Part shown: positions 1-10,967 of the stretch, one piece after another
How the letters are laid out: every line of letters starts with the position of its first letter
Numbering within the stretch: the stretch's first letter is position 1
Assembly: GCA_018241685.1 (NCBI GenBank)
Contig: JAFEDJ010000019.1
Span: 1,265 to 65,264 of the forward strand
Direction of reading: 5' to 3'
From: Pseudomonadota bacterium
GTDB lineage: Bacteria > Pseudomonadota > Gammaproteobacteria > Burkholderiales > Rhodocyclaceae
DNA: 64,000 nucleotides
Made by a program: the position numbers and the translations under genes
Notes under the pieces: model-generated
What the model was told of the DNA's origin: nothing
The model's input: the letters and a program-made list of their open reading frames with translations, nothing else
The model's database searches: none

Positions 1-1
1 T

Positions 2-166
2 AAGAAGCGAAACTTTGTCGCCGAACGCCTCACCGAGACGTTCCAGTTCTATCTGGACTCGCTCGGTGAACTTCTTTTGTTCGGGGGCATAGTCTTCAAA
101 AAAGTAATAGACAAACAACTTCGCTTCGGGCTCGACAGTCCCAAGGTACGTTTGTGTAACCCACAT
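2..166 (-). CDS. Hypothetical cassette protein, 5' part only (MWVTQTYLGTVEPEAKLFVYYFFEDY...), runs off the window
   Basis: ATG at 166 with GGAG 8-11 nt upstream; frame open to base 2; lies directly after the attC-like site at 191-259. Confidence 0.6.
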   Translation of the reverse strand, partial: MWVTQTYLGTVEPEAKLFVYYFFEDYAPEQKKFTERVQIELERLGEAFGDKVSLL

Positions 167-190
167 TATAACACTCCGATATGATATGAC

Positions 191-259
191 GCCCAATGTT
201 TGAATTCACCGGCCTTGCGCGGCTTTATGCGAAAGTTCCGGTGGAATGATGGTGCCTCA
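191..259 (-). mobile_element. Degenerate attC-like site 1
   Basis: Minus strand reads CCATC-ATTCCAC-CGG...TTCGCATAAAGCCGCGCAAG...CCGGT-GAATT-CAAAC-ATTGGGC. It is an imperfect palindrome with an L''/L' extra base; R' is ATTGGGC (GTTRRRY with G>A) and R'' is eroded. Confidence 0.65.
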
Positions 260-269
260 CTGGAAGGGG

Positions 270-1235
270 CTAGGAGTCAGCTTTGGGTGGCTTGGCTAGG
301 AAGTAGTCCAGACGGCCAATAGGCGAGTAAGGCTTCGCGAGCTTTATGACGGCCCACTTGCTGCCTGCATGAAACACACTCATGGCAGGAACTCGATACT
401 GCATCTCCCGAATCACCAAATGTTCTTTGGTGCCTAAGTCGCGAAGAATCCATTGTTCAAGATACTTGCGTGCTCCCACCTCGCCATCCAGCATGAAGTA
501 GATATTATCGAGGACGTCTTGTACGGTTGTGTCGGGGCCTATCTCGATGTGTTTCACACGTGGGGCTTCGGACTTCATATTGAGGTCTATGGCTACGTTG
601 TACCGGGCGTTGGATGCTGAGGGTAACGCGCCGTTGTCCGCCGTAGCGTTCATTACCTGCGCAAAGCGACGATCAAGATACTCTCGAAGCGTGTCCATCG
701 CCTGCGCGAGCGAAGGATTTGGAGGGGATGTAGACACAATCGCGTCATCCGACTTCTCCCGTGTGAGTGCTGCGACGGCTTCCTCTAGAACAGGGCGCGC
801 CATTCCCTCATCAAAAGGAATCTGATGCATGGCTAGGAGCTTCTCGGCGAAGCGCTTGAGTGAGTCGTAGTCTGCAAGTTGGAACGTCTGGTACATCGCG
901 AGAGGAAAGGGAACATCGGCAACGCTATCAATACCAACGCAGACAGGTATGACGGCACAGTTTATTTGTGCTGCTCCGAACCCTGCTTCGAACAACAGCC
1001 AAGGTCGGTTAACGCTCTGTGGAGTAAGCAGTACCACCAGCGCTCTGCTGTCAGCGATTTGACGGCGTATTTCGTCAAGCCAGACTTGACCAGGACGAAG
1101 CCCACCGCTGGGGCCATCATCAGAAGAGTGCCACACAGAAATTTGTCCGAGCGTGAGGCGCTGTACTGCTTGAGCAATGGCCTTTGCTCTCTCGCGATCA
1201 CGCGAGTCGTGACTGAGGAACAGTTTGTGAGGCAT
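270..1235 (-). CDS. TIR-domain protein (TIR_2-like) with a predicted C-terminal beta-grasp/ubiquitin-like domain
   Basis: N-terminal KLFLSH..RD, VW, ALVVLLTPQS..RPWLLFEAG with the catalytic Glu; C-terminal IEIGPDTTVQDVLDNI...WILRD...GSKWAVI resembles the ubiquitin strand-helix pattern. Confidence 0.8.
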   Translation of the reverse strand: MPHKLFLSHDSRDRERAKAIAQAVQRLTLGQISVWHSSDDGPSGGLRPGQVWLDEIRRQIADSRALVVLLTPQSVNRPWLLFEAGFGAAQINCAVIPVCVGIDSVADVPFPLAMYQTFQLADYDSLKRFAEKLLAMHQIPFDEGMARPVLEEAVAALTREKSDDAIVSTSPPNPSLAQAMDTLREYLDRRFAQVMNATADNGALPSASNARYNVAIDLNMKSEAPRVKHIEIGPDTTVQDVLDNIYFMLDGEVGARKYLEQWILRDLGTKEHLVIREMQYRVPAMSVFHAGSKWAVIKLAKPYSPIGRLDYFLAKPPKADS

Positions 1236-1310
1236 CGGTGGTCCAGTATAGAAAGTTCAGTATTTTCAGCTACTGCTTGTGCTGAAGTGCTACATCGATA
1301 TCCGGAAGGT

Positions 1311-1400
1311 GCATAGCGTTTTTGCATGTCCGAATTTCAAGTAATGCAGACAGCGTCGAGTCGGCCGGTTTTTTACTGGATGCAGCGGATGATCGGTCGG
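1311..1400 (-). mobile_element. Possible degenerate long attC-like site 2
   Basis: Minus strand ...ATCCG..CCAGTAA...TTACTTG..TCGGAC...CAAAAAC-GCTATGC; inverted arms AGTAA/TTACT and TCCG/CGGA; R' GCTATGC (GTTRRRY with T>C); lies between two cassette genes. Confidence 0.4.
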
Positions 1401-1577
1401 AGTCCGGGATTTGACCGAGAAACAGTAGAACATCAAGGACTGAGGATCGACTTCGCCGTGCATCGTTGCTGTGCCTGTAGTTCGGGGGATAAAGCTAGGA
1501 GAGGTGAATGGCCTGTTCGTTCACTGGGTACTGTATCAGTCGAGAGATCAATTACATTGTTGTATATAAGCCACGCT

Positions 1578-2135
1578 TCATATGGAATGACTTTCTGGAT
1601 ACCGGCTGTACAAGCGATTCTGCAAACGTGCTAGTTCCTTCATTGTTTTCATGTACTCCCGTTCGAGCTTCTTTGGCAGGGATATATAGCCGTGTTGGTC
1701 GGCCAGGTTGCCCGTGTTCAAGATTTCAAATCTTCTCTTGGCCAAGTAGAGGAAGCGGGTGACGTCGTGATCTTTGACGAGAGGCTGTCGGAGATTATCA
1801 ACCTGCCTTCCGATGTATTTTCTGTTTGGGTCAGGAAGGAAGGTGATGACATCAAACCGGCGCTCCCGAGAAGAAATGTCAATGTACTCGCCAGTTGGAC
1901 TTAACCAGACGGCATGAAACTCAGCCTCGATGAATACACCCGGACGCTCCCAGATGGCCCAGCCAATCACCTGTTCGCCACCAAAGGACGAGACGTGCCC
2001 TGGAAGGATAGAGAAGCACTCGTTCTCTGGTTGGTTTGGGGGTGGTTGGCAGACGACGGTCGCAGGTACTTGCTCGGGTACGATGCCACAACAAAACTCT
2101 CTGACATGCAGAGCATTAGCAGGGGCAGCACGCAT
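1578..2135 (-). CDS. Hypothetical protein with a transglutaminase/papain-like Cys-His-Asp motif set
   Basis: NECF (C40), GWAIW, AEFHAVW (H74), GEYIDI (D86); start moved to ATG 2135 because the track's start lies inside the attC-like site. Confidence 0.6.
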   Translation of the reverse strand: MRAAPANALHVREFCCGIVPEQVPATVVCQPPPNQPENECFSILPGHVSSFGGEQVIGWAIWERPGVFIEAEFHAVWLSPTGEYIDISSRERRFDVITFLPDPNRKYIGRQVDNLRQPLVKDHDVTRFLYLAKRRFEILNTGNLADQHGYISLPKKLEREYMKTMKELARLQNRLYSRYPESHSI

Positions 2136-2146
2136 AGGGAAATGAC

Positions 2147-2215
2147 CTCTATCATTTGACATGAGCGGCATGGTCGGGCTTGCCGGGACATATCCGCTCG
2201 ATGGAAGGTGGCGTC
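2147..2215 (-). mobile_element. Degenerate attC-like site 3
   Basis: Minus strand CCTTC-CATCGAG-CGGATATGTCCCGGCAAGCCCGACCATGCCG-CTCATG-TCAAAT-GATAGAG. It is a classic attC hairpin with the extra base in L''; R' is GATAGAG; it abuts the kwaB stop codon. Confidence 0.7.
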
Positions 2216-3128
2216 ACACTTGGGTTGCGTCTGGTACGTCGTAGATGAAGTCAGTGACTTCGCTTAGCAGTCGATGGTCAAGCAGTACTTGCATGATTGC
2301 TTTTGTCGTCTGGTCGCAAGGGACGAGTTGCCCTGTTTGTGGATCAAAGTTCAGCCCCCAGTTTCGTCGTGTGTTGACAGTTTGAACCGCATTGAGGAAG
2401 CCGGGGCGCCTAAAAAGCGCCCGCTCCTCAATTCGAGCCATGCGCCTTAGTTGAATCGAGTTCGTTCCAACGTGATCAATTAGAGGCTGCATGTTGGTAA
2501 ACAAGTTTGCAAAGTTCTGGTCTTGCTGAAGTCCAACGAAGGCCTGGGCATAAGAAGCCCGGTGCTCCATCGCCGACTCGAAGGCGCGTTTGCTCGCGAT
2601 GAAAAGGCCTTGCTGGTGTGCGTAAAAATCAAAGGTCTTCTCGATCGCAAAGGCGTTATCCTCAGCTGCAGACAACTCGCCATTTCGAAAAACGATGTTG
2701 ATATGTGTCTTCAGATATGAGGTCTTCCAGTTGCTCGCAGTCTTCTTGACGGCGTAGACGACTTGGCCATTGCAAACGAACTTAACAAGGTAGCCGCCCG
2801 CGTTCTTGAGATCCTTGATCGATTGGACTCGGCAGTCAGGCTCTGGGCGGTCGACTCGTGCCTTGAGGTACTCAAAGTCGCTGCCCGCTAATTGGGTGGT
2901 TAGACAGCTGTTTTCATTGTTTTGAGCGAGGTATGAGTAGGCTGCATACTCCGTAATTCGATTCACTTCGCTTCGCACTACACCAAGAAGCAATGCGTTC
3001 AGTGCTTCGTCAGTTTGAACGTAGTGCGCGGAAAATTTATATGCAGTAGAGCTTCGTTTGTAGACCCAAAGATGGATATGACTATTTTCAAAGTCGAATG
3101 CTCTAAGTGAAGCAAATGTTTGCTGCAT
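2214..3128 (-). CDS. kwaB: Kiwa anti-phage protein KwaB (DUF4868-like)
   Basis: 304 aa soluble protein with LW.YK N-terminus, FAIEKTFDF, FE..M..R and LRRMARI motifs; its ATG directly follows the TAG of the kwaA-like gene. Confidence 0.8.
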   Translation of the reverse strand: MQQTFASLRAFDFENSHIHLWVYKRSSTAYKFSAHYVQTDEALNALLLGVVRSEVNRITEYAAYSYLAQNNENSCLTTQLAGSDFEYLKARVDRPEPDCRVQSIKDLKNAGGYLVKFVCNGQVVYAVKKTASNWKTSYLKTHINIVFRNGELSAAEDNAFAIEKTFDFYAHQQGLFIASKRAFESAMEHRASYAQAFVGLQQDQNFANLFTNMQPLIDHVGTNSIQLRRMARIEERALFRRPGFLNAVQTVNTRRNWGLNFDPQTGQLVPCDQTTKAIMQVLLDHRLLSEVTDFIYDVPDATQV

Positions 3129-3713
3129 CTACTTGTCCCTGAGTATGTAGAAGTCTTGGACGGTCTGCCCCATCTGCTCACCGATCTCAAGGTTGCCGTA
3201 CTTAAGAACGCGAACATCCTTTTCTATGCCATTGATAACAATCGTTGCTTCGTACAGTTTCCACCCGAATATCAGAAGGAGCGGATTCATGAGGATTTGT
3301 CCCGACTTCAGTGTTATGGCAAACATCCAGAGTAGAAAGACTCCGAATCCTATGAGTTTCTGTGGATCACCGTAGGCTATTCCCATGAACGAAACAACGT
3401 ATGGGAAGGTATAGTTAATGATCTCGTTTGGTGTCGCCTTCATCCGCTTTACGTCTATCAAGAACGGACATCTAATTCTCAGAAGGGAACTCTTCGCGAG
3501 AAGCGTCGCCGCCGCAGTGACCGCTAGAAATGAGATGGATAAGACCGGGTTATCAAACGGTACGAACAGACATTCACTAGCTTTGAGGCTTGTGGTTGTA
3601 CAAAAAGGACGTGCCCACCACTGTGCCGATATGTCCTGCATCGCAAGAATGATCGCGAGTGGAAAGTAGGAGCCTAAGAAGATTAGGAGCCCTGGTATCA
3701 GGTGAAATTGCAT
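3129..3713 (-). CDS. kwaA: Kiwa anti-phage membrane protein KwaA
   Basis: About 4 TM segments; SYFPL, NYTFPYVVSF and NPLLLIFGWKLYE motifs; coupled to kwaB. Confidence 0.8.
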   Translation of the reverse strand: MQFHLIPGLLIFLGSYFPLAIILAMQDISAQWWARPFCTTTSLKASECLFVPFDNPVLSISFLAVTAAATLLAKSSLLRIRCPFLIDVKRMKATPNEIINYTFPYVVSFMGIAYGDPQKLIGFGVFLLWMFAITLKSGQILMNPLLLIFGWKLYEATIVINGIEKDVRVLKYGNLEIGEQMGQTVQDFYILRDK

Positions 3714-3758
3714 TGCAGGATGTTAATATTCAAGCGTGGTTCAGTGGTTGTTTGTGAT

Positions 3759-3826
3759 GTCCAACGTCTGAGTTTACTGGTCTGCGCGGTTTGTTGCGCA
3801 GGTCCGGTGGCGTGATGAGGTGGGGA
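3759..3826 (-). mobile_element. attC-like site 4 (intact GTT core)
   Basis: Minus strand CCCCAC-CTCATC-ACGCCAC-CGGACCTGCGCAACAAACCGCGCAGACCAGT-AAACT-CAGAC-GTTGGAC; same repeat family as site 1; R' is a perfect GTTRRRY. Confidence 0.7.
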
Positions 3827-3858
3827 TCGGTACGGAAAATTATTAGCCGTATACTTAG

Positions 3859-4341
3859 CTATTCATCAAAGCCATGAATAATTGACTTGGCAATACAGGT
3901 GCAATCGATGGCAACTCCTGGGAGTAGATAACCTGCTTCCGTAAGCAGCCCAAGGTTTGATTCGAATCGCTGACCAGAAAATCGGGCATGCGACGCATTG
4001 GGGTTGTTCTTCCTTAAACCGCAGGTGGTTGCTGTCCAAATGCATTTGGAAATGCCAAGGTCTTGTTTTCGTACTTGTTCTTTTCGCGCGGCGGCGATAT
4101 TGACGAAGTATCTGGATACAGCTGCGGCCTGACTCTTCTCCAGCTTGTAGCGTGCCGTAACTTCCTTTGCGAGCGAATGTAGATCTCGACCACATTCATA
4201 CACCAAAATACCAAATTCGCTTTTTTCGTCAAATTGAAGAAGAGAAAAATAATCCTTGGCTATCTGCACAGATTGCTCCGGCGAAACCTTGAGTCTCTCT
4301 TCAAAGTCTTTGGCAGTGTATGAAGGGTATCCATTTGGCAT
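3859..4341 (-). CDS. Hypothetical protein with a MuF/SPP1-gp7-like (phage minor head protein) C-terminal motif
   Basis: CIW.......H..FSGQRF...G......LPG..IDCTC...II matches the MuF pattern Y.W...H...G..F...PG..INCRC. Confidence 0.55.
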   Translation of the reverse strand: MPNGYPSYTAKDFEERLKVSPEQSVQIAKDYFSLLQFDEKSEFGILVYECGRDLHSLAKEVTARYKLEKSQAAAVSRYFVNIAAARKEQVRKQDLGISKCIWTATTCGLRKNNPNASHARFSGQRFESNLGLLTEAGYLLPGVAIDCTCIAKSIIHGFDE

Positions 4342-4664
4342 TCACAGTGCCTTTGCTTTTCGGAAGAATTTTAAGAACACGCGAACTCCAATATTTCAAG
4401 CCGACCGGGGGCTATCTCCAACGTAAACCTAATTGTCGCCTTCGTCATTCCACATATGTGGAGCTGGATTGATCCGTGGGGCGTTGCTGGCGCTCCGTCT
4501 TCATAAAGGCGTCAGTAACAAGGACTACAACCCGTCATCATCCGCCCGATTCTCACGTCTGCCGATTCTCAGCAGAATGGCATTTATCCTGTCAGTTTCA
4601 CTATGCACTGCGTCACTCGCGTGCTTCTCCACGGACTGCTTTGCTGCCCCATCAATCGTTCTAC

Positions 4665-4694
4665 TTGACGGTCGTCCAGCACTGGTTCGATACT
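4665..4694 (+). promoter_or_regulatory. Putative sigma70 promoter of the c4 operon
   Basis: TTGACG-N18-GATACT just upstream of the a1/b1 target region. Confidence 0.4.
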
Positions 4695-4757
4695 CCACCG
4701 CGTCACCTAAACAATGGTGATCGGGTGTAGGAACCCGGATTGCAAAGGCCGATGAAG

Positions 4758-4780
4758 GCCGCGTTTTGACGCGGCTTTTT
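4758..4780 (+). terminator. Rho-independent terminator between the a1/b1 sites and the c4 RNA
   Basis: GCCGCGT-TTTG-ACGCGGC followed by TTTTT. Confidence 0.7.
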
Positions 4781-4808
4781 CTTGTCGGAGTACGGTTGCG
4801 CCCTTTCA

Positions 4809-4888
4809 ATGGCGGGCCGTGCGGGGCAGCCGTGAGGCTGGCCGGTTCCTTTGCCCGGTATTCCTACCCCCGCACGGTTCCGCCGCCC
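4809..4888 (+). ncRNA. c4 antisense RNA (P1/P7 C4, P4 CI-like)
   Basis: Closing stem GGCGGGCCGTGCGGGG/CCCCGCACGGTTCCGCC; CAGCC-GTGA-GGCTG GNRA hairpin; exposed CCTTTGC (4848-4854) and TTCCTAC (4861-4867) are complementary to GTAGGAA/GCAAAGG upstream (4727, 4742) and downstream (4891, 4922). Confidence 0.8.
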
Positions 4889-4939
4889 CCGTAGGAAGGG
4901 GTGGCGGAGATGCAAATCGCAGCAAAGGAGCAACACCTC

Positions 4940-5050
4940 ATGACCATTCACGCCGAAGGGCGCGCAGACGTGCGCGTGCCGATTGCATCTGTTTCTTTCG
5001 CTTCACATTCAGCTCATTCGTCGCACGTGACGAGGAGGGCCAGGGCATGA
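4940..5050 (+). CDS. 36-aa peptide in the icd-like position after c4
   Basis: AAGGAG RBS overlapped by a c4 target; MTIHAEGRADVRVPIASVSF...; its stop overlaps the next ATG (ATGA). Confidence 0.5.
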   Translation: MTIHAEGRADVRVPIASVSFASHSAHSSHVTRRARA

Positions 5051-5334
5051 GCACGCCGATGCGCTTTCCCGCCCCCGCGAGCCCGATTTATGTTCTTGCC
5101 AGCGCGGCTGACGCGCTCGCCCTCACCGATCAACTCACCGCACGACAGGCTCAACTACAAGCGCTCCTTGCGATGACCCATGGCAACGCGGGGGATGTCT
5201 TCCGGCGCATGGATGTAGATTGCCAGGAGAACTACCTGTGGGCCTGCGCGATGATTGCGGGGGAGTTGCGGGAACTGATGGAAGCGATTCAGACTAGGTG
5301 GCGTGAAGAGAGGGCAGTGCACATCAAGGAGTGA
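5047..5334 (+). CDS. 95-aa helical hypothetical protein (QLQALL...QENYLWAC), c4-controlled
   Basis: ATGA coupling to the upstream peptide and GAGGAG upstream; corresponds to the 3' part of track ORF 4819..5334. Confidence 0.6.
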   Translation: MSTPMRFPAPASPIYVLASAADALALTDQLTARQAQLQALLAMTHGNAGDVFRRMDVDCQENYLWACAMIAGELRELMEAIQTRWREERAVHIKE

Positions 5335-5342
5335 TGGCGGGA

Positions 5343-5757
5343 ATGTTCATGTTGCCGCCCCCTTGATCATCGAGCGCTCGGCAACTTCTTGATAGCAGCC
5401 GGCAACATGCTTCGTTCACCCGGCAGGCAAGCATGTTGCCGGGTGAACATTCGATGTTGGTGCTGCAGCATTGAATACGCGCTTCAGCGCATTGAGTGCT
5501 CAGGTATCAATATTGAACATTCAATACGCTGATGGTTTATGTTCGGCCGTGAACATTGAATGTTAAGACCGCCGTATAGCATGTAGACGTCGCAATGATT
5601 GATGTTGCGACGTCAACTTTTTTCGTGGACAGCGACGCATGACATATGGAGCCGCTTACATCGAAAGCGCGGCCGTCAACATCGATGGAGGCGCCGGCAA
5701 CATTCGATGTTGCGCCCGCAACGATTCAGCCGCGGGTTTCATCGTTGATCAATGTTG
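5343..5757. repeat. Non-coding array of AACAT/ATGTT half-sites and nested inverted repeats
   Basis: 15 AACAT/ATGTT copies counted; GCAACAT-TCG-ATGTTGC at 5697-5713; 14-bp inverted repeat 5399-5412/5429-5442; 10-bp inverted repeat GACGTCGCAA/TTGCGACGTC at 5586-5614. Confidence 0.8.
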
Positions 5758-5819
5758 ATGGAATATACATCCCTTGTCATCATGCGTGCTCTGATTGAGT
5801 GGGCTCGAGGGAGAAGTCG

Positions 5820-8800
5820 ATGTTGCGTCATCTATCGCGTCGCGGTTTCGGGCTGGTGCCCTTGCTGCTGGTGCTTGCCGCGCTCGCTGCGGCGGGTGTG
5901 TTTGTCGCCAAGACGCAGCAATCCGATGAGGCGGAGTCTGTGGACGGGCCGTTCCAGATTGCGGATTTCGCCAATCGTGACTTCGAGGGCTCGCCGGCGC
6001 TGGCGCTGAGCTTCACGCATCCGATGGATGCGCGGCGGGATTACGACGGGGCGATCCAGGTGTTCGAGATGCCGCCCCGCACGGGTGAGGCCAAGCCGCA
6101 CACTCAAGACGACGAGGACGCCGACAATCAGGGCGAGGGCACGCCCGGCAGCGGCAATCCGCAGGTCAGTACGGCCCCGGCGGATGTGGCGATCGACGGC
6201 GGCAAGCTGGTGAAGGGCGCCTGGGTGGTGGGGGACAACCCGCGCATCCTGTATTTCCCGCACATCAAGCCGCAAACCCGTTACGTGGTGCGCGTGGCGG
6301 CGGGGCTGCCGTCGAAGGCCGGCCAGACGTTGGCGGAAGCCAGCAGTTATTCGGTGGTCACCGCCGTCGTCTCGCCGGCCTATTACTTCGCCAGCCGTGG
6401 CATGGTGCTGCCGGCCAAGCAGAACGGCGGGCTGCCGGTGGTCACGGTCAACGTGCCGGAGGTGGATGTCCAGTTCCTTCGCGTCAAGCCGGACCAGTTG
6501 CCACGCTTCCTCGACAAGGTGATCAGCGGGCCGCGTCCGCAGCGGGGCAAGCGCCAGCAGAATAACGACGGCTACGATTACGATGAAGAGTACGACGGCG
6601 ACGAGGACTGGCGCGCGACCGATCTCAAGGGGGCTATCGACAACTGGTCGCTCGACAATTTGCACAGCCTGACGGAGAGCGTGTTCACCGGCCGCTTCCT
6701 GACCGAGCAGAAGCCCAACAAGCGCAACGTCACTTTCCTTCCGGTCGAGGACATCAAGGAGCTTCGCGAGCCCGGCATCTACATCGCGGTGATGAGCCAG
6801 CCGAACCGTTTCCGCTACGACTATCAGGTCACTTATTTCTATGTCAGCGATCTCGGCTTGAGTACCCGGCTGTTCGCCAAGGGGGCCGATGCCTACGTCA
6901 GCTCGCTGACCACCGGCAAGGCGATGGCGGGGGTCGAGGTGGCCTGGATGGATGAGAACGCCAAGGTCCTGGCGCGCGCCGAGACCGACAGCAACGGACG
7001 GGCCCCCTTTGCGGAGCGGCCGGCTGCCGCCAAGCTCATTCTGGCGCGTAACGGCCAGCAGATCTCGTTGATTGCACTGAAGGAGCCGGCGCTGGATCTT
7101 TCGGAATACGACATCGCGGGCCTGCCCGGTCGGCCTGTGCGCTTGTTTGCGTACTCCGGTCGCAACCTGTATCGACCGGGCGAGAGCTTCGATCTGTCCG
7201 TATTGGCGCGGGATGCGGACGGCCGCGCCGTACCGCCACAGCCGATCCAGGCCATCCTCAGGCGGCCGGACGGCAAGAGCCAGTTCACTGCCACCTGGCA
7301 ACCGGACGGCAAGCTGGGGGGCTATTACCAGAACCGCATCGCGCTGCCGGTGGATGCGCCGACAGGCTCATGGACGCTGGAGCTGCGTGCCGACCCGGCC
7401 GACAAGCTGGCCACCACCAGCTTCCGTTTCGGCGTCGAGGAGTTTTTGCCGGAGCGCATGAAGCTCGATCTGGCCAGCAAGCAGGCCACGGTGTCGCCCA
7501 ATGACACGCTGACCATCGCCGTCAAGGGTGCTTATCTCTACGGCGCGCCGGCGGCTGGCAACCAGTTGCTCGGGGTTGCCGTCTTCGAGCGCCAGAAGAA
7601 TCCGCTGGCTCAGAAGCTGCCCGGTTTCGAGTTTGGCGACACCAATGAGGAGAGCCAGCGCCAGCGCGTGGAACTGGACCAGAGCCAGCTCGACGAGAAC
7701 GGTGAGCTGGCGCTCGACGTGGATCTCGCGCCGGCCAAGGACAAGCGGTCGCCCTACACCGTGCGGACCACGCTGAGCCTGCTGGAGAGCGGCGGCCGGC
7801 CGGTGGTGCGCAATTTCGAGCGGGTGATCTGGCCGGCGCCGGTGTTGGTGGGTGTCCGCCCGCTGTTCACCGGCGACTACGCCCGCGAAGGCAGCATCGC
7901 GCAGTTCGAGGTGGTGCGCGCCAACGCCGAGGGCAAGTTGAGCGCAGGCAGCGGGCTGCCGGTGCGCCTGTTCCGCGAGAACCGCGATTACTACTGGCGC
8001 TTCGACGACCAGCGCGGCTGGCATTCGGGTTTCACGGAGACCGACGAACTGGTGAACACCGCGAGCGTCAGCATTCCCGATGGCGGACGCGGCAAGCTCG
8101 GTGTGCCGGTCAAATACGGGCGTTACCGCCTGGAGATCACCGATCCGGCCACGCAGCAGACGACGAAATACCGCTTCTACGCCGGCTGGAGCGCCCGTGG
8201 CGACGAAACCCAGGGCGTCCGTCCCGATCGTGTCGCACTGAAGTTCGACAAGCCGGCCTACCAGGATGGCGAGACCGCCAAGCTGAGCATCACGCCGCCG
8301 CACGCCGGTGAGGCGCTGATCACCGTCGAGGCGGACAAGACCCTGTGGGTCAGGCGCATCCCGGTGGCCCTTGATGGCACGACGGTCGAGATTCCGGTGG
8401 ACAAGGCGTGGAAGCGCCACGACCTGTATGTGTCGGTCAGCGTGCTGCGGCCGGGCAGTGCTGGCGAAAAGGTCACCCCGGCGCGGGCCTTGGGCCTGGC
8501 GCACCTGCCGCTTGAACGGGGCGAGCGCAAGCTGGCGGTGAGTCTCGATGCGCCGAAGAAGATGCTGCCGGACACGCGCCTCAAGGTGAAGGTCAAGGCG
8601 CCCGGCGCTGCCGGCCAGCAGGCGGTGGTCACGCTGTCCGCCGTCGATGTGGGCATCCTCAACATCACGCGCTACACGACGCCCGACCCGCACGGCCACT
8701 TCTTCGGCAAGCTGCGTTACGGCGCCGACCAGTACGACGTGTACGGCCGTCTGATCGAGAAGATGGGCGGCCAGAAGGGCAAGCTCAAGTTCGGTGGCGA

Positions 8801-10964
8801 TGCCGCGCCGAAGGCGACCAAGAGCCTGCCCAAGAAGGTGCGCCTGGTGGATCTGTTCTCCGGGCCGGTGCTGCTCAACGCGCAGGGCGAAGCCGAGATC
8901 GCCCTCGACGTGCCTGATTTCAACGGCACGCTGCGCCTGATGGCGGTGGTCGCGGCACCCGAGAAGTTCGGCAACGCCGAGGCGGAGACGGTTGTTGCCG
9001 CGCCGCTGGTGGCCGAGCTGATGACGCCGCGCTTCCTGACGGTAGGTGACAACGCCACCATCGCCCTCGACCTGCACAACCTGTCCGGTGCGGCGCAGAA
9101 GCTCAAGGTGCGCATCGAGAATGCGGACGGCCTGAAGATCCAGAACGCCGAGCGCGAGCTGGACCTCAAGGATCAGCAGAAGCAGACGCTGCGCTTCCCG
9201 CTCGAAGCGGGCAACGCCTTCGGCCTGACCGATGTGCGGGTCCACGTCAGCAGCGTTGCCGGCCTCAAGCTGGAGCGCAGCTTCGGCCTGCAGGTCCAGG
9301 CGGCGACGCCGCAACAGCAGGTGCTCAAGCTGCTTGCCGTCGGGCCGGGCGAGACGGTGGAGGTGAAGGACGCGGAACTGGGCGGCTTCATCCGGAGCAC
9401 CGTGCAATCGCATCTGGTGCTCTCCAACAAGGCGCCGATCGACGTGCGCAGCGCCATCCAGGGGCTGCTGACCTATCCCTACGGCTGCGCAGAGCAGACG
9501 ACCAGCACGGCCTACCCGCATGTGCTGATCGACGAGGAGGGGGCCCGGCTGTTCGGGCTCAAGGCCTACACCCGCGCGCAGCGGGAAGACATGCTGGAGA
9601 AGGCCATCGCCCGGCTTGGCGCGATGCAGGCGCCGAACGGCGGCTTCAGCCTGTGGGGCAATGTGTCCGAGTACCAGTACTGGCTGTCGGCCTATGTCGG
9701 CAACTTCCTGCTCGATGCCCGCGAACAGGGCTTCCAGGTGCCGGAGGCGATGCAGAAGAAGACCCAGGAATTCCTGCTCAAGTATCTGCAGGAAGGCGTG
9801 GCCGGTCTGCCGACCGGCAAGCTGAGCTACAACGAGAACGGCTGGCAGGATTACCGCTTCGGCGGTTCCGGCCGTTTCGGCGTGCTTGCCTACGGCGCCT
9901 ATGTGCTGGCTCGTGAATCCAAGGCGCCGCTGTCCACGCTGCGCCAGATGTTCGAGGTCCGCAGCCAGGCGCACTCGGGGCTGGCCCTGGTGCAGCTCGG
10001 CCTGGCGCTCAAGCTGATGGGCGATGAAACCCGTGCCCAGACGGCGCTCGCCGAAGGTGTGAAAAAGAGCCGTGACAATGGCTACTGGTGGGGTGACTAC
10101 GGCAGCCCGCTGCGGGATGCGGCGCTGTCCTACGCGCTGCTCGACCGCCACAAGGTGAAGGTCGACGGCCGTGACAATCTGGTTGCCGTTGCTGCCGCCG
10201 AACTGGGCAAGAACCGTTACACCAGCACCCAGGAGAAGCTCGCGCTGTTCCTGCTCGGCCGCAACTTCACCAAGGCCGGCGAAGGCGAGGGCGGGTGGAC
10301 GGCGGAAGTGCTCGGCAAGGACACGCCGGAAGTCATCAACGGTGCTGGCACGCTGATCCGGCCGCTGTCGGCAACGGCCTTGCAGGGCGGCGTTCGTATC
10401 CGGAACACCTACAAGGACAAGCTCTACCTGCAACTCAGCCTGAGCGGCAATCCGGCGAAGATGCCGGCCAACCGCGACGACGCCATCGCATTGAGCCGCG
10501 ACCTGTTCGAAGCCGACGGCACGCCGCTGAAGAGCCGCACGCTGAAGGTTGGTGAATCGGTCATCGTGCGCATCAAGGTCAATCCGCACAGCTGGGTCAA
10601 TACCGGCATGGTGGTGGACCACATCCCGGCCGGCCTGGAGATCGAGAACCTCAATATCGTCCAGGGTGAAGGCATGGGCAGCACGACGATCGAGGGCATC
10701 AACCCGGCCGAGGCGATGCAGGACCCGCGCATCCAGCACGTCGAGTTCCGCGATGACCGCTTCGTGGTGGCCGCCCGGCTGCACGGCAAGCTCAGCCTGT
10801 TCTACCGCGCACGGGTCGTCACCCCCGGCAAGTTCGTCTTCCCACCGCTGTACGCCGAGGACATGTACCGCCCGGATGTCTATGGCCTTAGCACTGGCGA
10901 GGCGACCCTGACGGTGAGCGACGGCAAGGACAAGCCGGCTGCCGCAGCGCCGGCCAAACCGTAA
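5820..10964 (+). CDS. yfhM: Bacterial alpha-2-macroglobulin (YfhM/MG2 family)
   Basis: About 1715 aa; YRPGE MG2 motif, VEEFLPERM, thioester motif YPYGCAEQ, C-terminal MYRP; paired with pbpC. Confidence 0.95.
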   Translation: MLRHLSRRGFGLVPLLLVLAALAAAGVFVAKTQQSDEAESVDGPFQIADFANRDFEGSPALALSFTHPMDARRDYDGAIQVFEMPPRTGEAKPHTQDDEDADNQGEGTPGSGNPQVSTAPADVAIDGGKLVKGAWVVGDNPRILYFPHIKPQTRYVVRVAAGLPSKAGQTLAEASSYSVVTAVVSPAYYFASRGMVLPAKQNGGLPVVTVNVPEVDVQFLRVKPDQLPRFLDKVISGPRPQRGKRQQNNDGYDYDEEYDGDEDWRATDLKGAIDNWSLDNLHSLTESVFTGRFLTEQKPNKRNVTFLPVEDIKELREPGIYIAVMSQPNRFRYDYQVTYFYVSDLGLSTRLFAKGADAYVSSLTTGKAMAGVEVAWMDENAKVLARAETDSNGRAPFAERPAAAKLILARNGQQISLIALKEPALDLSEYDIAGLPGRPVRLFAYSGRNLYRPGESFDLSVLARDADGRAVPPQPIQAILRRPDGKSQFTATWQPDGKLGGYYQNRIALPVDAPTGSWTLELRADPADKLATTSFRFGVEEFLPERMKLDLASKQATVSPNDTLTIAVKGAYLYGAPAAGNQLLGVAVFERQKNPLAQKLPGFEFGDTNEESQRQRVELDQSQLDENGELALDVDLAPAKDKRSPYTVRTTLSLLESGGRPVVRNFERVIWPAPVLVGVRPLFTGDYAREGSIAQFEVVRANAEGKLSAGSGLPVRLFRENRDYYWRFDDQRGWHSGFTETDELVNTASVSIPDGGRGKLGVPVKYGRYRLEITDPATQQTTKYRFYAGWSARGDETQGVRPDRVALKFDKPAYQDGETAKLSITPPHAGEALITVEADKTLWVRRIPVALDGTTVEIPVDKAWKRHDLYVSVSVLRPGSAGEKVTPARALGLAHLPLERGERKLAVSLDAPKKMLPDTRLKVKVKAPGAAGQQAVVTLSAVDVGILNITRYTTPDPHGHFFGKLRYGADQYDVYGRLIEKMGGQKGKLKFGGDAAPKATKSLPKKVRLVDLFSGPVLLNAQGEAEIALDVPDFNGTLRLMAVVAAPEKFGNAEAETVVAAPLVAELMTPRFLTVGDNATIALDLHNLSGAAQKLKVRIENADGLKIQNAERELDLKDQQKQTLRFPLEAGNAFGLTDVRVHVSSVAGLKLERSFGLQVQAATPQQQVLKLLAVGPGETVEVKDAELGGFIRSTVQSHLVLSNKAPIDVRSAIQGLLTYPYGCAEQTTSTAYPHVLIDEEGARLFGLKAYTRAQREDMLEKAIARLGAMQAPNGGFSLWGNVSEYQYWLSAYVGNFLLDAREQGFQVPEAMQKKTQEFLLKYLQEGVAGLPTGKLSYNENGWQDYRFGGSGRFGVLAYGAYVLARESKAPLSTLRQMFEVRSQAHSGLALVQLGLALKLMGDETRAQTALAEGVKKSRDNGYWWGDYGSPLRDAALSYALLDRHKVKVDGRDNLVAVAAAELGKNRYTSTQEKLALFLLGRNFTKAGEGEGGWTAEVLGKDTPEVINGAGTLIRPLSATALQGGVRIRNTYKDKLYLQLSLSGNPAKMPANRDDAIALSRDLFEADGTPLKSRTLKVGESVIVRIKVNPHSWVNTGMVVDHIPAGLEIENLNIVQGEGMGSTTIEGINPAEAMQDPRIQHVEFRDDRFVVAARLHGKLSLFYRARVVTPGKFVFPPLYAEDMYRPDVYGLSTGEATLTVSDGKDKPAAAAPAKP

Positions 10965-10967
10965 GGC

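What the first reader, a model, noticed from the sequence alone, without database searches (positions are those of the whole stretch)
270..1235. TIR domain fused to a predicted ubiquitin-like (beta-grasp) domain
Seen: an intact TIR with its catalytic Glu (WLLFE) and a short helical linker (LREYLDRRF). The ~90-aa C-terminus has IEIGPDTTVQDVLDNI, which parallels ubiquitin's LEVEPSDTIENVKAKI, and ends in a terminal strand (GSKWAVI). There is no C-terminal GG and no E1/E2 gene nearby. Known: TIR NADases are abortive-infection effectors or signal makers activated by oligomerisation. Inference: a single-gene defence in which the Ubl senses or polymerises on a phage factor. I do not recognise this architecture as a named system.
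Basis: partly seen in the sequence, partly recalled or inferred. Interest (0 to 1): 0.8.

Follow-up and report, generated by a model that had tools for sequence, protein, structure and literature searches.

The report
TIR enzyme with ubiquitin-fold tail
This gene encodes a stand-alone NAD-destroying (TIR) enzyme joined to a small ubiquitin-shaped tail domain, which is most likely an unnamed single-gene anti-phage suicide switch; the same tail is also found on three other kinds of related enzymes, which suggests it is the trigger-sensing part.

Summary
The ORF at 270..1235 on the minus strand encodes 321 aa. It has an N-terminal TIR domain (Pfam TIR_2, E 6e-13) whose WxxxE glutamate (E83) is at least 90% conserved. 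A flexible linker and one long helix follow, then a roughly 90-aa C-terminal domain.

AlphaFold2 models that domain confidently (pLDDT 91) as beta-beta-alpha-beta-beta-3/10-beta. All 50 top Foldseek PDB hits are ubiquitin-superfold proteins. There is no GG tail and no E1/E2 gene nearby, so it is not a conjugatable Ubl.

The family is real but rare, at 13 loci among 185,579 species genomes, and it is spread patchily across three phyla. It has no conserved neighbour in 17 loci. In the window it lies in a low-GC island next to a Kiwa system.

New here: a profile of the tail domain finds it C-terminal to several TIR subfamilies, to DUF4062, to NDT/DNPH1-like N-glycosidases, to AbiH, and behind EAD7 adaptors.

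My best reading (confidence about 0.6) is a single-gene abortive-infection NADase whose beta-grasp tail docks on a phage-made multimer and clusters the TIR domains, as in SpbK and Swarozyc. It matches no PADLOC 2023 model at full length, and no paper in the searchable library describes it. I rate it a new variant of a known kind. Function is untested.

The parts
270..1235 (-). Complete gene for the 321-aa TIR plus beta-grasp protein (stop codon at 270-272)
   Evidence: The ORF is listed. There are 78 homologues with the same length and start motif MPHxLFLSHD. It is likely monocistronic, with a 342-bp gap to the upstream ORF and a 103-bp gap to the next ORF.
756..1235 (-). TIR domain, residues 1-160
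   Evidence: Pfam TIR_2, E 6e-13. In the AF2 model this domain's 10-residue blocks average pLDDT 87-98. Foldseek hits solved TIR NADases: SPARTA, SpbK, SARM1 and AbTir.
987..989 (-). Codon of Glu83, the predicted catalytic glutamate in the W79-L-L-F-E83 motif
   Evidence: The plus-strand bases are ttc, which read GAA on the minus strand. E83 is at least 90% conserved in alignments A1 and A5. It aligns to the WxxxE Glu of AbTir and TIR-STING.
603..755 (-). Linker region, residues 161-211: a disordered stretch, an amphipathic helix 176-199 (bases 639-710) carrying the conserved D188 and R190, then a second disordered stretch
   Evidence: AF2 gives pLDDT below 50 at residues 164-172 and 199-208, and a helix at 176-199. 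D188 and R190 are nearly invariant. A pTM of 0.53 alongside high per-domain pLDDT suggests the two domains are not held in a fixed orientation.
327..602 (-). Ubiquitin-like beta-grasp domain, residues 212-303, with Y258, W262, A284 and W294 invariant in A1 (W294 at least 90% conserved in A4) and the conserved PY (302-303)
   Evidence: The AF2 model of the domain alone has pLDDT 91.2 and pTM 0.83. The Foldseek PDB and BFVD top hits are ubiquitin-fold proteins. A profile of the domain finds 192 representatives.
273..326 (-). Variable C-terminal tail, residues 304-321, with no Gly-Gly
   Evidence: In the alignment the tail varies in length and sequence, and its pLDDT is 42-58.
1..4500 (.). Context only: a low-GC island (44-54% GC against 62-71% from base 6000 on). 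It holds the TIR gene, an ORF matching phrog_37148 (1578-2171, minus strand), KwaB (2214-3128, minus strand), KwaA (3129-3713, minus strand) and a phage head-morphogenesis-like fragment (3859-4341, minus strand).
   Evidence: Composition profile, PADLOC KwaA 2e-71 and KwaB 7e-123, PHROGs hits.

Best explanation
The gene encodes a self-contained anti-phage abortive-infection protein. The N-terminal TIR domain is the effector. It would be an NAD+ glycohydrolase that uses Glu83 and becomes active only when several TIR domains pack together. The C-terminal helix plus ubiquitin-fold beta-grasp domain is the auxiliary module that decides when this happens.

The most likely mechanism is that the beta-grasp docks on a multimeric, phage-made structure such as a portal, capsid or tail assembly. 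Many copies are then brought side by side, the flexible linkers let the TIR domains assemble, NAD+ is destroyed, and the infected cell dies before phage are released.

Shown by computation: the domain architecture, the conserved catalytic Glu, the beta-grasp fold, the absence of any conserved partner gene, the island context, and the exchange of the tail module between different N-glycosidase-type effectors.

Inferred: NADase activity, defence, and what the tail binds.
For: Architecture and fold:
- TIR_2 at E 6e-13.
- AF2 full-length model with pLDDT 86.6 and two well-folded domains joined by disordered linkers.
- TIR Foldseek hits to activated NADase assemblies: SPARTA, the SpbK filament, SARM1 and AbTir.
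- Tail domain model with pLDDT 91 and pTM 0.83, with only ubiquitin-fold hits.
- The catalytic Glu is conserved and aligned to AbTir.

Single-gene status:
- An all-against-all comparison of ORFs within 4 kb of the gene in 17 loci found no shared neighbour outside two near-identical Aquimarina genomes.
- None of the window's neighbours recur in any fetched locus.

Defence context:
- Kiwa lies about 1 kb away in a 50%-GC island within a roughly 66%-GC genome.
- In Haliscomenobacter, PDC-M41A starts 2 bases after the homologue's stop codon.
- PD-T4-10, PDC-S15, PDC-M30B, PDC-M72A and a ThsB-like gene are among the 140 neighbours scanned.
- RT-Cas1 and toxin-antitoxin genes, or a DUF4062 giant protein and transposases, lie near other members.
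- The phyletic spread is patchy across Burkholderiales, Acidobacteriota and Bacteroidota.

Modularity:
- A tail-domain profile finds 192 representatives.
- Of 85 full-length representatives, 75 carry TIR_2, 2 carry EAD7 plus TIR, 1 carries DUF4062 (2e-27) and 1 carries AbiH (1.2e-20).
- A further group has an N-terminal domain that matches solved NDT-superfamily N-glycosidases: MilB at 9.7e-5 and DNPH1 at 1e-4.
- In reverse, the same TIR clade occurs with unrelated helical tails in P0079 and P0080.

Mechanistic precedent from papers:
- SpbK is a 4-helix sensor, a linker and a TIR domain. It is activated when its sensor docks on the dodecameric portal YonE and clusters the TIR domains (PMC12847820).
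- Swarozyc KpSwz is DUF4062, a helical stalk and a C-terminal AUX. It is activated by portal binding and depletes NAD+ (bioRxiv 10.64898/2026.05.01.722283).
- Evangelion is DUF4062 plus an essential AUX (bioRxiv 10.64898/2026.06.25.731849).
Against: - No member of this family has been tested, so NADase activity and phage protection are assumed from homology.
- Defence-gene neighbours occur at only a minority of loci. Several homologues sit among ordinary metabolic genes.
- I computed no background rate for the defence association.
- No full-length homologue was found in the phage or plasmid collections.
- The fold match is generic (TM 0.5-0.65, identity 8-18%) and points to no particular ligand.
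- Many of the invariant aromatic residues may simply form the hydrophobic core.
- All partner effectors cleave N-glycosidic bonds of NAD+ or nucleotides. The tail could therefore bind a nucleotide-derived small molecule rather than a phage protein.
Confidence: 0.6

Rival explanations
1. The beta-grasp tail does not sense phage proteins. Instead it is an autoinhibitory or oligomerisation module, or it binds a small molecule such as an NAD-derived or other nucleotide signal. The trigger would then be metabolic or would come from another system.
For: Every N-terminal partner of the tail is an enzyme of NAD+ or nucleotide N-glycosidic chemistry: TIR, DUF4062, NDT/DNPH1-like and the SIR2-like AbiH (PMC13064643). 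This narrow range is unusual for a generic phage sensor. Beta-grasp domains that bind soluble ligands are well known from general knowledge of the fold. The AF2 model places the tail with no fixed contact to the TIR domain (pTM 0.53), which neither supports nor excludes intramolecular inhibition.
Against: No cyclase, CD-NTase or other signal-making gene is conserved next to the family. The tail shows no sequence match to any ligand-binding family. The best-studied proteins with the same layout, SpbK and KpSwz, sense a phage protein directly.
Confidence: 0.17
2. The TIR domain makes a signalling nucleotide, like Thoeris ThsB, and the executing effector is encoded elsewhere in the genome.
For: There are weak PADLOC and Pfam similarities to ThsB (E 7e-4 and 0.006). 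SpbK also produces cADPR alongside ADPR. A ThsB-like gene occurs near one family member.
Against: No ThsA-like gene (SIR2/SLOG, Macro or caspase) or any other gene is conserved beside the family in 17 loci. Horizontal transfer of a lone signal-maker would be useless. The tail module also joins AbiH and NDT-like domains, which are not known signal-makers.
Confidence: 0.1
3. The protein is not a phage-defence protein. It could be an NADase toxin used against other cells, a remnant of a mobile element, or a protein with a housekeeping role.
For: Several homologues lie among metabolic genes with no recognisable defence neighbour. The window copy is flanked by phage-like remnants. A lone tail fragment and a split gene exist, which shows that copies decay.
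Against: I saw no obvious signal peptide, secretion-associated domain or adjacent immunity gene, although I ran no dedicated predictor. The family shows strong purifying conservation across three phyla. It is fused in some members to EAD7 conflict-system adaptors and its tail is shared with AbiH. It sits beside Kiwa or PDC-M41.
Confidence: 0.08
4. The ubiquitin-like domain is a substrate for conjugation, as in Bil systems or Cap2-primed CBASS. The TIR enzyme would then be covalently attached to a target.
For: The only support is that the domain has the ubiquitin fold and sits at the C-terminus.
Against: There is no Gly-Gly or conserved terminal residue. The tail after the last strand varies from 0 to more than 20 residues. 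No E1, E2 or JAB gene is present in the window or in any related locus. One member carries a further 190 aa after the domain (P0177).
Confidence: 0.02

Closest known systems
SpbK of Bacillus subtilis ICEBs1 (single-gene TIR abortive-infection protein; PMC12847820, PMC8880864)
   Same: Both are a single polypeptide with a small non-enzymatic domain, a flexible linker and a TIR NADase, with no partner gene. The SpbK TIR filament (9phb) is Foldseek hit number 5 of the full model. The likely logic is the same: the sensor docks on a multimeric phage protein and the TIR domains cluster.
   Different: The domain order is reversed, since the SpbK sensor is N-terminal. The SpbK sensor is a 4-helix bundle, not a beta-grasp. 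There is no detectable sequence relationship outside the TIR fold. The trigger for the present family is unknown.
Swarozyc (KpSwz) and Evangelion (Eva01): DUF4062/TIR-like NADase plus C-terminal AUX (bioRxiv 10.64898/2026.05.01.722283 and 10.64898/2026.06.25.731849)
   Same: Both have the layout N-terminal NADase-type domain, helical stalk, then a C-terminal auxiliary domain that is essential for defence. Both are single-gene systems spread by horizontal transfer. One protein (P0163) joins a DUF4062 core to the very tail domain found here.
   Different: The core here is a canonical TIR_2 domain, not DUF4062. The KpSwz AUX is a winged helix-turn-helix. The S. aureus plasmid DUF4062 protein, which I presume to be Eva01, and a Salmonella prophage DUF4062 protein do not match the tail profile.
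Thoeris ThsB (TIR sensor and signal maker)
   Same: Both are bacterial TIR proteins thought to recognise infection. There is weak profile similarity.
   Different: Thoeris needs an adjacent ThsA effector, and none is conserved here. ThsB models score far below their usual level.
Ubiquitin-like beta-grasp proteins (ubiquitin, SUMO, UBX, YukD, TmoB, Ras-binding domains) and bacterial Ubl defence systems (Bil, Cap2-CBASS)
   Same: The fold and topology are the same.
   Different: There is no significant sequence similarity, no GG and no conjugation enzymes. The domain is a fused module rather than a free modifier.
AbiH (lactococcal abortive infection protein, SIR2-like by structure prediction; PMC13064643)
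   Same: One AbiH-family protein (P0159) carries the same tail domain at E 2.7e-18. This ties the tail to a named Abi family.
   Different: Ordinary AbiH proteins are 265-290 aa and lack the tail. The window protein has no AbiH domain.

Membership tests
TIR domain (Pfam TIR_2, STIR clan) NADase | Profile match above the curated threshold | tested here: met
   TIR_2 scores 49.8 bits against a cut-off of 28. PF01582 TIR scores 22.9 against 21.3.
TIR domain (Pfam TIR_2, STIR clan) NADase | Flavodoxin-like five-strand fold that superposes on solved TIR domains | tested here: met
   The AF2 model has alternating strand-helix units over residues 3-136. Foldseek gives 55 PDB hits at E<=1e-3; the 50 listed are TIR domains apart from one nucleoside 2-deoxyribosyltransferase.
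TIR domain (Pfam TIR_2, STIR clan) NADase | Catalytic glutamate in the WxxxE motif | tested here: met
   W79 and E83 are present. E83 is at least 90% conserved and aligns to the equivalent Glu of AbTir and TIR-STING. Those alignments have weak E-values of 0.07-0.4.
TIR domain (Pfam TIR_2, STIR clan) NADase | NAD+ cleavage that depends on self-association | not testable with these tools
   This needs an enzyme assay.
Ubiquitin-like beta-grasp fold | beta-beta-alpha-beta-beta-(3/10)-beta topology with a mixed sheet grasping one helix | tested here: met
   DSSP on two AF2 models gives this order of elements. The top 50 PDB hits are all of this fold, with probability 0.97-1.00 and TMq up to 0.65.
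Ubiquitin-like beta-grasp fold | Sequence-profile membership of a known ubiquitin-clan family | tested here: not met
   No Pfam family matched. There were only scattered sub-threshold hits to SNX-FERM F1 and Rad60-SLD. No PDB sequence matched. hhalign against ubiquitin gave probability 2.7%.
Conjugatable ubiquitin-like modifier (Bil, Cap2-CBASS, eukaryotic Ub/Ubl) | Exposed C-terminal Gly or Gly-Gly, plus an E1/E2 (and usually a JAB or DUB) gene in the locus | tested here: not met
   The tail is variable and has no GG. No such genes are present in the window or in related loci.
Thoeris | ThsB TIR gene adjacent to a ThsA-type effector gene | tested here: not met
   There is no conserved neighbour in 17 loci. 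The ThsB models reach only E 7e-4 and 0.017.
Swarozyc / Evangelion | DUF4062 core domain | tested here: not met
   The window protein has no DUF4062 hit.
Swarozyc / Evangelion | N-terminal NADase-type core followed by an essential C-terminal auxiliary region, as a single gene | tested here: met
   Whether the tail is essential was not tested.
Swarozyc / Evangelion | AUX region homologous to that of KpSwz or Eva01 | tested here: not met
   The tail profile fails to match the S. aureus pMW2-type DUF4062 protein and a Salmonella DUF4062 protein. The paper describes the KpSwz AUX as a winged HTH.
Kiwa | KwaA membrane protein plus KwaB (DUF4868) as the complete system | tested here: not met
   KwaA and KwaB are both present at 2214-3713 and form a complete pair on their own. 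The TIR gene is separated from them by another ORF. Its homologues occur without Kiwa in all 17 other loci. It is a neighbour, not a component.
PADLOC-DB 2.0.0 named or candidate systems | Full-length match to any model | tested here: not met
   There are only partial TIR-region hits: TIR-TM at 3.4e-6 over residues 49-124, ThsB, SAVED-TIR and PDC-S66. DefenseFinder and later PADLOC releases were not available.

The most novel reading that the evidence does not exclude
The ubiquitin-fold tail is a bait that mimics a Ubl. It would detect phage proteins that bind or cleave bacterial ubiquitin-like modifiers, for example counter-defences against Bil-type Ubl conjugation. This would be a guard or decoy circuit that couples interference with the Ubl pathway to NAD+ depletion. 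Because the tail is portable, the same bait would arm TIR, DUF4062, NDT-like and AbiH effectors.
Probability: 0.07. Interest if true: 0.85.

Novelty: new variant of a known kind. Interest (0 to 1): 0.6.

Why it matters
Single-gene NADase defences built from an effector and a small sensor (SpbK, Swarozyc, Evangelion) are only now being worked out. In those systems the sensor regions have been described as lacking recognisable domains.

This finding defines a new, compact and confidently modelled sensor-type module with a ubiquitin fold. It also shows that evolution has moved the module between at least four classes of N-glycosidase effector.

That gives a clean experimental handle. One can swap the tail between effectors, select phage escapers, and learn what a bacterial ubiquitin-fold domain recognises. 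It would also add a TIR-based candidate system to defence-prediction databases. More broadly, it extends the list of eukaryote-like immune folds, here TIR plus ubiquitin-like in one chain, that are used by bacteria.

Tried and rejected
1. **Conserved partner gene.** The upstream genes of about 200 aa in several loci looked similar in size but are unrelated. All-against-all BLAST of neighbours found nothing shared. None of the window's own neighbours, including the ORF cut off at bases 2-166, recurs elsewhere.

2. **Sequence-level identification of the tail.** Pfam, the PDB profile search and hhalign against ubiquitin gave nothing significant.

3. **Homology of the tail to the Evangelion or Swarozyc AUX regions.** I rejected this. 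The tblastn overlap of P0163 with the S. aureus protein comes from the DUF4062 core and the linker.

4. **The tail as a normal part of AbiH.** I rejected this. The 119 other listed AbiH homologues cover only about 54-73% of P0159, and most are about 265-290 aa long.

5. **Carriage on sequenced phages or plasmids.** There were no full-length hits, only TIR-region similarity.

6. **Second word-indexed search with the mixed tail alignment.** It returned only 11 short fragments and added no new architecture.

7. **Transcription evidence.** Only DNA metagenome runs hold the sequence.

8. **Promoter and terminator scan.** The counts did not exceed the shuffled expectation.

9. **Membership of Kiwa, of Thoeris, or of a Ubl-conjugation system.** I considered each and rejected it (see the membership tests).
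Full report
**The observation.** The window holds an ORF at 270..1235 on the minus strand that encodes 321 aa. The start is secure, because homologues from many sources begin with the same MPHxLFLSHD motif. The gene is separated by 342 bp from the upstream ORF (1578-2171) and by 103 bp from a downstream ORF that runs off the window edge. It is therefore probably transcribed alone.

**TIR domain.** Pfam TIR_2 matches residues 6-124 at E 6e-13, with 49.8 bits against a cut-off of 28.
- An AlphaFold2 model built on 56 homologues has mean pLDDT 86.6.
- Its N-terminal 160 residues hit solved TIR domains of SPARTA TIR-APAZ, the SpbK filament, SARM1 and AbTir at E 2.6e-7 to 1e-4.
- Glu83 lies in W79-L-L-F-E83 and is at least 90% conserved.
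- It aligns with the WxxxE glutamate of AbTir and of a metazoan TIR-STING protein.
- From the published work on AbTir and SARM1, which I cite from knowledge, that glutamate is the NADase catalytic residue.
- The long loop between strand B and helix B carries invariant W35, S38, G44, G45 and G49. In TIR enzymes this BB loop controls assembly-dependent activation.

**Linker and tail.** After the TIR domain the model shows the following elements:
- a disordered stretch at 164-172;
- one long helix at 176-199, carrying nearly invariant D188 and R190;
- a second disordered stretch at 199-208;
- a compact domain at 212-298.

The overall pTM of 0.53, together with high per-domain confidence, suggests that the two domains are not held in one fixed orientation.

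I modelled the tail alone from a 51-sequence alignment. It reached pLDDT 91.2 and pTM 0.83. Its order of elements is strand, strand, helix, strand, strand, short helix, strand, which is the ubiquitin topology. All 50 best Foldseek matches in the PDB are ubiquitin-superfold proteins: Caldiarchaeum ubiquitin, UBX domains, SUMO, YukD, TmoB, kindlin and PI3K Ras-binding domains. Their TM-scores are 0.42-0.65. The viral structure library gives the same answer.

At sequence level nothing is significant. There was no Pfam hit, no PDB hit, and hhalign against ubiquitin gave probability 2.7%.

There is no Gly-Gly. The residues after the last strand keep only a P-Y pair and then vary freely. The domain is a ubiquitin-like fold but not a conjugatable modifier.

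**Family and distribution.** A search of 5.8 billion proteins returned 78 near-full-length or fragmentary relatives at 34-87% identity, almost all from metagenomes. A scan of one genome per species (185,579 species) found only 13 loci. They are in Ideonella (Burkholderiales), several Acidobacteriota, and many Bacteroidota: Aquimarina, Dyadobacter, Haliscomenobacter, Sphingobacteriaceae, Cytophagales and Flammeovirgaceae. The exact window sequence occurs in activated-sludge metagenomes. A rare gene with patchy spread across phyla is the usual signature of horizontal transfer.

**Context.** In the window the gene lies in a stretch of 44-54% GC (bases 1-4500) that abuts DNA of 62-71% GC. The same island carries:
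- a complete Kiwa pair, KwaA at 3129-3713 (2e-71) and KwaB at 2214-3128 (7e-123);
- an ORF that matches a phage protein family of unknown function (phrog_37148, 1.7e-34);
- a fragment resembling a phage head-morphogenesis protein.

Across 17 other non-redundant loci, an all-against-all comparison of every ORF within 4 kb found no shared neighbour, apart from two nearly identical Aquimarina genomes. The window's neighbours also do not recur. The gene therefore travels alone.

Some copies sit next to defence genes:
- In Haliscomenobacter a PADLOC candidate gene, PDC-M41A, starts 2 bases after the homologue's stop codon.
- Hits to PD-T4-10 A and B, PDC-M41B, PDC-S15, PDC-M30B, PDC-M72A and a ThsB-like TIR appear among the 140 neighbours scanned.
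- One copy is near RT-Cas1 and an antitoxin. Another is near a large DUF4062 protein and transposases.

Other copies lie among ordinary metabolic genes. The association with defence islands is real but partial, and I did not compute a background rate.

**The tail is a portable module.** This is the main new result. A profile of the tail alone, run against 1.84 billion cluster representatives, found 192 proteins at E<=1e-3 and 146 at E<=1e-10. In all but one of the full-length hits the domain is at the C-terminal end. I scanned 85 full-length representatives against Pfam:
- 75 carry TIR_2, from more than one TIR subfamily (for example P0125, P0141, P0127 and P0212).
- 2 add an N-terminal EAD7 effector-associated adaptor (3.8e-20).
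- 1 has a DUF4062 core (P0163, 2e-27).
- 1 has an AbiH domain (P0159, 1.2e-20).

A further group (P0130, P0147, P0148, P0168 and P0201) has an N-terminal domain that reaches only sub-threshold Pfam similarity to nucleoside 2-deoxyribosyltransferase. As a profile, however, it matches solved NDT-superfamily N-glycosidases, MilB at 9.7e-5 and DNPH1/Rcl at 1e-4, with the catalytic Glu aligned.

The aligned tails from all these architectures share invariant Y258, W262 and A284, and nearly invariant L242, P283, F288 and W294.

Ordinary AbiH proteins are 265-290 aa and lack the tail. The AbiH fusion is encoded between LRR-caspase genes and a YoeB toxin pair.

In the other direction, the same TIR clade occurs with unrelated helical C-termini (P0079 and P0080). 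Shuffling in both directions is the pattern expected of an effector joined to a separate specificity module.

**Comparison with papers.**
- DUF4062 was shown in 2026 to be a TIR-like NADase. In Swarozyc (KpSwz) a DUF4062 core, a helical stalk and a C-terminal auxiliary domain form a single-gene abortive-infection system. The auxiliary domain binds the phage portal ring and switches on NAD+ hydrolysis (bioRxiv 10.64898/2026.05.01.722283).
- Evangelion is a second DUF4062-plus-AUX family in which truncation of the AUX abolishes defence (bioRxiv 10.64898/2026.06.25.731849).
- SpbK is a 4-helix sensor, a flexible linker and a TIR domain. Docking of the sensor on the dodecameric portal YonE clusters the TIR domains and activates them (PMC12847820).
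- AbiH is predicted to be SIR2-like and to act through NAD+ (PMC13064643).

The present protein has the same layout and the same kind of flexible tether, but a different auxiliary fold. The KpSwz AUX is a winged helix-turn-helix. The tail profile does not match the S. aureus pMW2-type DUF4062 protein or a Salmonella prophage DUF4062 protein.

**Mechanism proposed.** In uninfected cells the protein is dispersed and its TIR domain is inactive. A phage-made multimer offers many binding sites for the beta-grasp tail. Bound copies are concentrated, the linkers allow the TIR domains to form the composite active sites, NAD+ is hydrolysed using Glu83, and the infected cell dies.
- Shown by computation: the architecture, the fold, the catalytic residue, the single-gene status, the island context and the module exchange.
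- Inferred: the enzymatic activity, the protective effect, activation by clustering, and the nature of the trigger.

I put about 0.6 on this reading as a whole. That breaks down to about 0.95 on the architecture, about 0.7 on a defence role, and about 0.45 on the tail being the direct sensor of a phage protein.

**Rivals.**
- The tail could be an autoinhibitory, oligomerising or small-molecule-binding module (0.17). The narrow range of partners, all N-glycosidic-bond enzymes, is the best argument for this.
- The TIR domain could make a signal for an unlinked effector (0.10). The lack of any conserved partner argues against it.
- The protein could have a role outside phage defence (0.08).
- The Ubl could be conjugated (0.02). 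This is effectively excluded by the missing GG and the missing enzymes.

**Novelty and score.** No PADLOC-DB 2.0.0 model covers the protein beyond weak TIR-region hits. Full-text searches for TIR with beta-grasp or ubiquitin-like domains in phage defence found no description of this architecture.

The kind of system, a single-gene NADase with a sensor module, is known. The ubiquitin-fold module and its exchange between four effector classes are not. I rate it a new variant of a known kind, with interest 0.6. It is a well-defined and testable candidate with a new domain family, but it is rare, untested, and mechanistically anticipated by SpbK and Swarozyc.

Noticed in passing
window 2214-3713 (minus strand): There is a complete Kiwa defence system: KwaA at 3129-3713 (PADLOC 2e-71) directly followed by KwaB at 2214-3128 (7e-123; Pfam KwaB 1e-38). 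The two genes abut with no gap.
   Followed up: partly
window 1578-2171 (minus strand): A 197-aa ORF lies between Kiwa and the TIR gene. It has no Pfam, NCBIfam or PADLOC hit but matches phage protein family phrog_37148 (unknown function) at 1.7e-34. It could be another cargo gene of the island. It does not recur next to TIR-Ubl homologues.
   Followed up: partly
window 3859-4341 (minus strand): A 160-aa ORF matches only an internal part (profile positions 217-322 of 624) of phrog_324, a head-morphogenesis family, at 5e-9. It looks like a phage remnant or a captured domain at the inner edge of the island.
   Followed up: no
window 1-6000: GC content shifts sharply, from 44-54% over bases 1-4500 to 62-71% from about base 6000 on. 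The foreign island runs off the left end of the window, so its full extent and integration site are unseen. No tRNA gene lies in bases 1-12000.
   Followed up: partly
window 5799-10964 (plus strand): A 1721-aa bacterial alpha-2-macroglobulin is encoded here, with bMG1-10, bait-region and TED domains and a GCAEQT thioester motif. This is the first ordinary high-GC host gene after the island. The long antisense ORFs listed over it (for example 7368-13229) are probably high-GC artefacts.
   Followed up: partly
window 2-166 (minus strand): A gene start (MWVTQTYLGTVEPEAKLFVYYFFEDY...) lies 103 bp downstream of the TIR gene and is cut by the window edge. It has no relative in any fetched locus.
   Followed up: partly
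L027 673-1605 and L028 815-1747: The architecture appears as two adjacent genes, a 118-aa TIR_2 protein and then a 172-aa helix-plus-beta-grasp protein after a 57-bp gap. The 172-aa protein is on record on five contigs. This is either a true two-gene variant or a shared frameshift.
   Followed up: no
L026 6001-6327: A lone 108-aa copy of the tail domain (69% identical to the window's) has no TIR gene upstream and sits among metabolic genes. It is probably a decayed remnant.
   Followed up: no
P0088 and P0118 (metagenomic proteins of 407 and 421 aa): These are EAD7-TIR-beta-grasp proteins. An effector-associated adaptor domain (Pfam EAD7, best E-value 3.8e-20 among the two members) precedes the same architecture. 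This hints that some members are recruited into larger conflict systems.
   Followed up: no
L031 2646-3806 and flanks: The AbiH plus beta-grasp fusion (P0159) lies between two LRR-caspase (Peptidase_C14) genes and a YoeB toxin-antitoxin pair. A 289-aa gene of unknown function ends 4 bases before it.
   Followed up: no
L030 3992-5335 (Salmonella plasmid/prophage NZ_CP051374.1): A 447-aa DUF4062 protein is inserted between the virion-morphogenesis and baseplate genes of a P2-like prophage. It has a different, unidentified C-terminal region.
   Followed up: no
L013 5925-8984 and L020 7656-8981: In two high-GC loci the open frame extends far upstream of the TIR start, giving 1019 and 441 codons. 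This is probably just a lack of stop codons rather than real N-terminal fusions. I did not resolve it.
   Followed up: no
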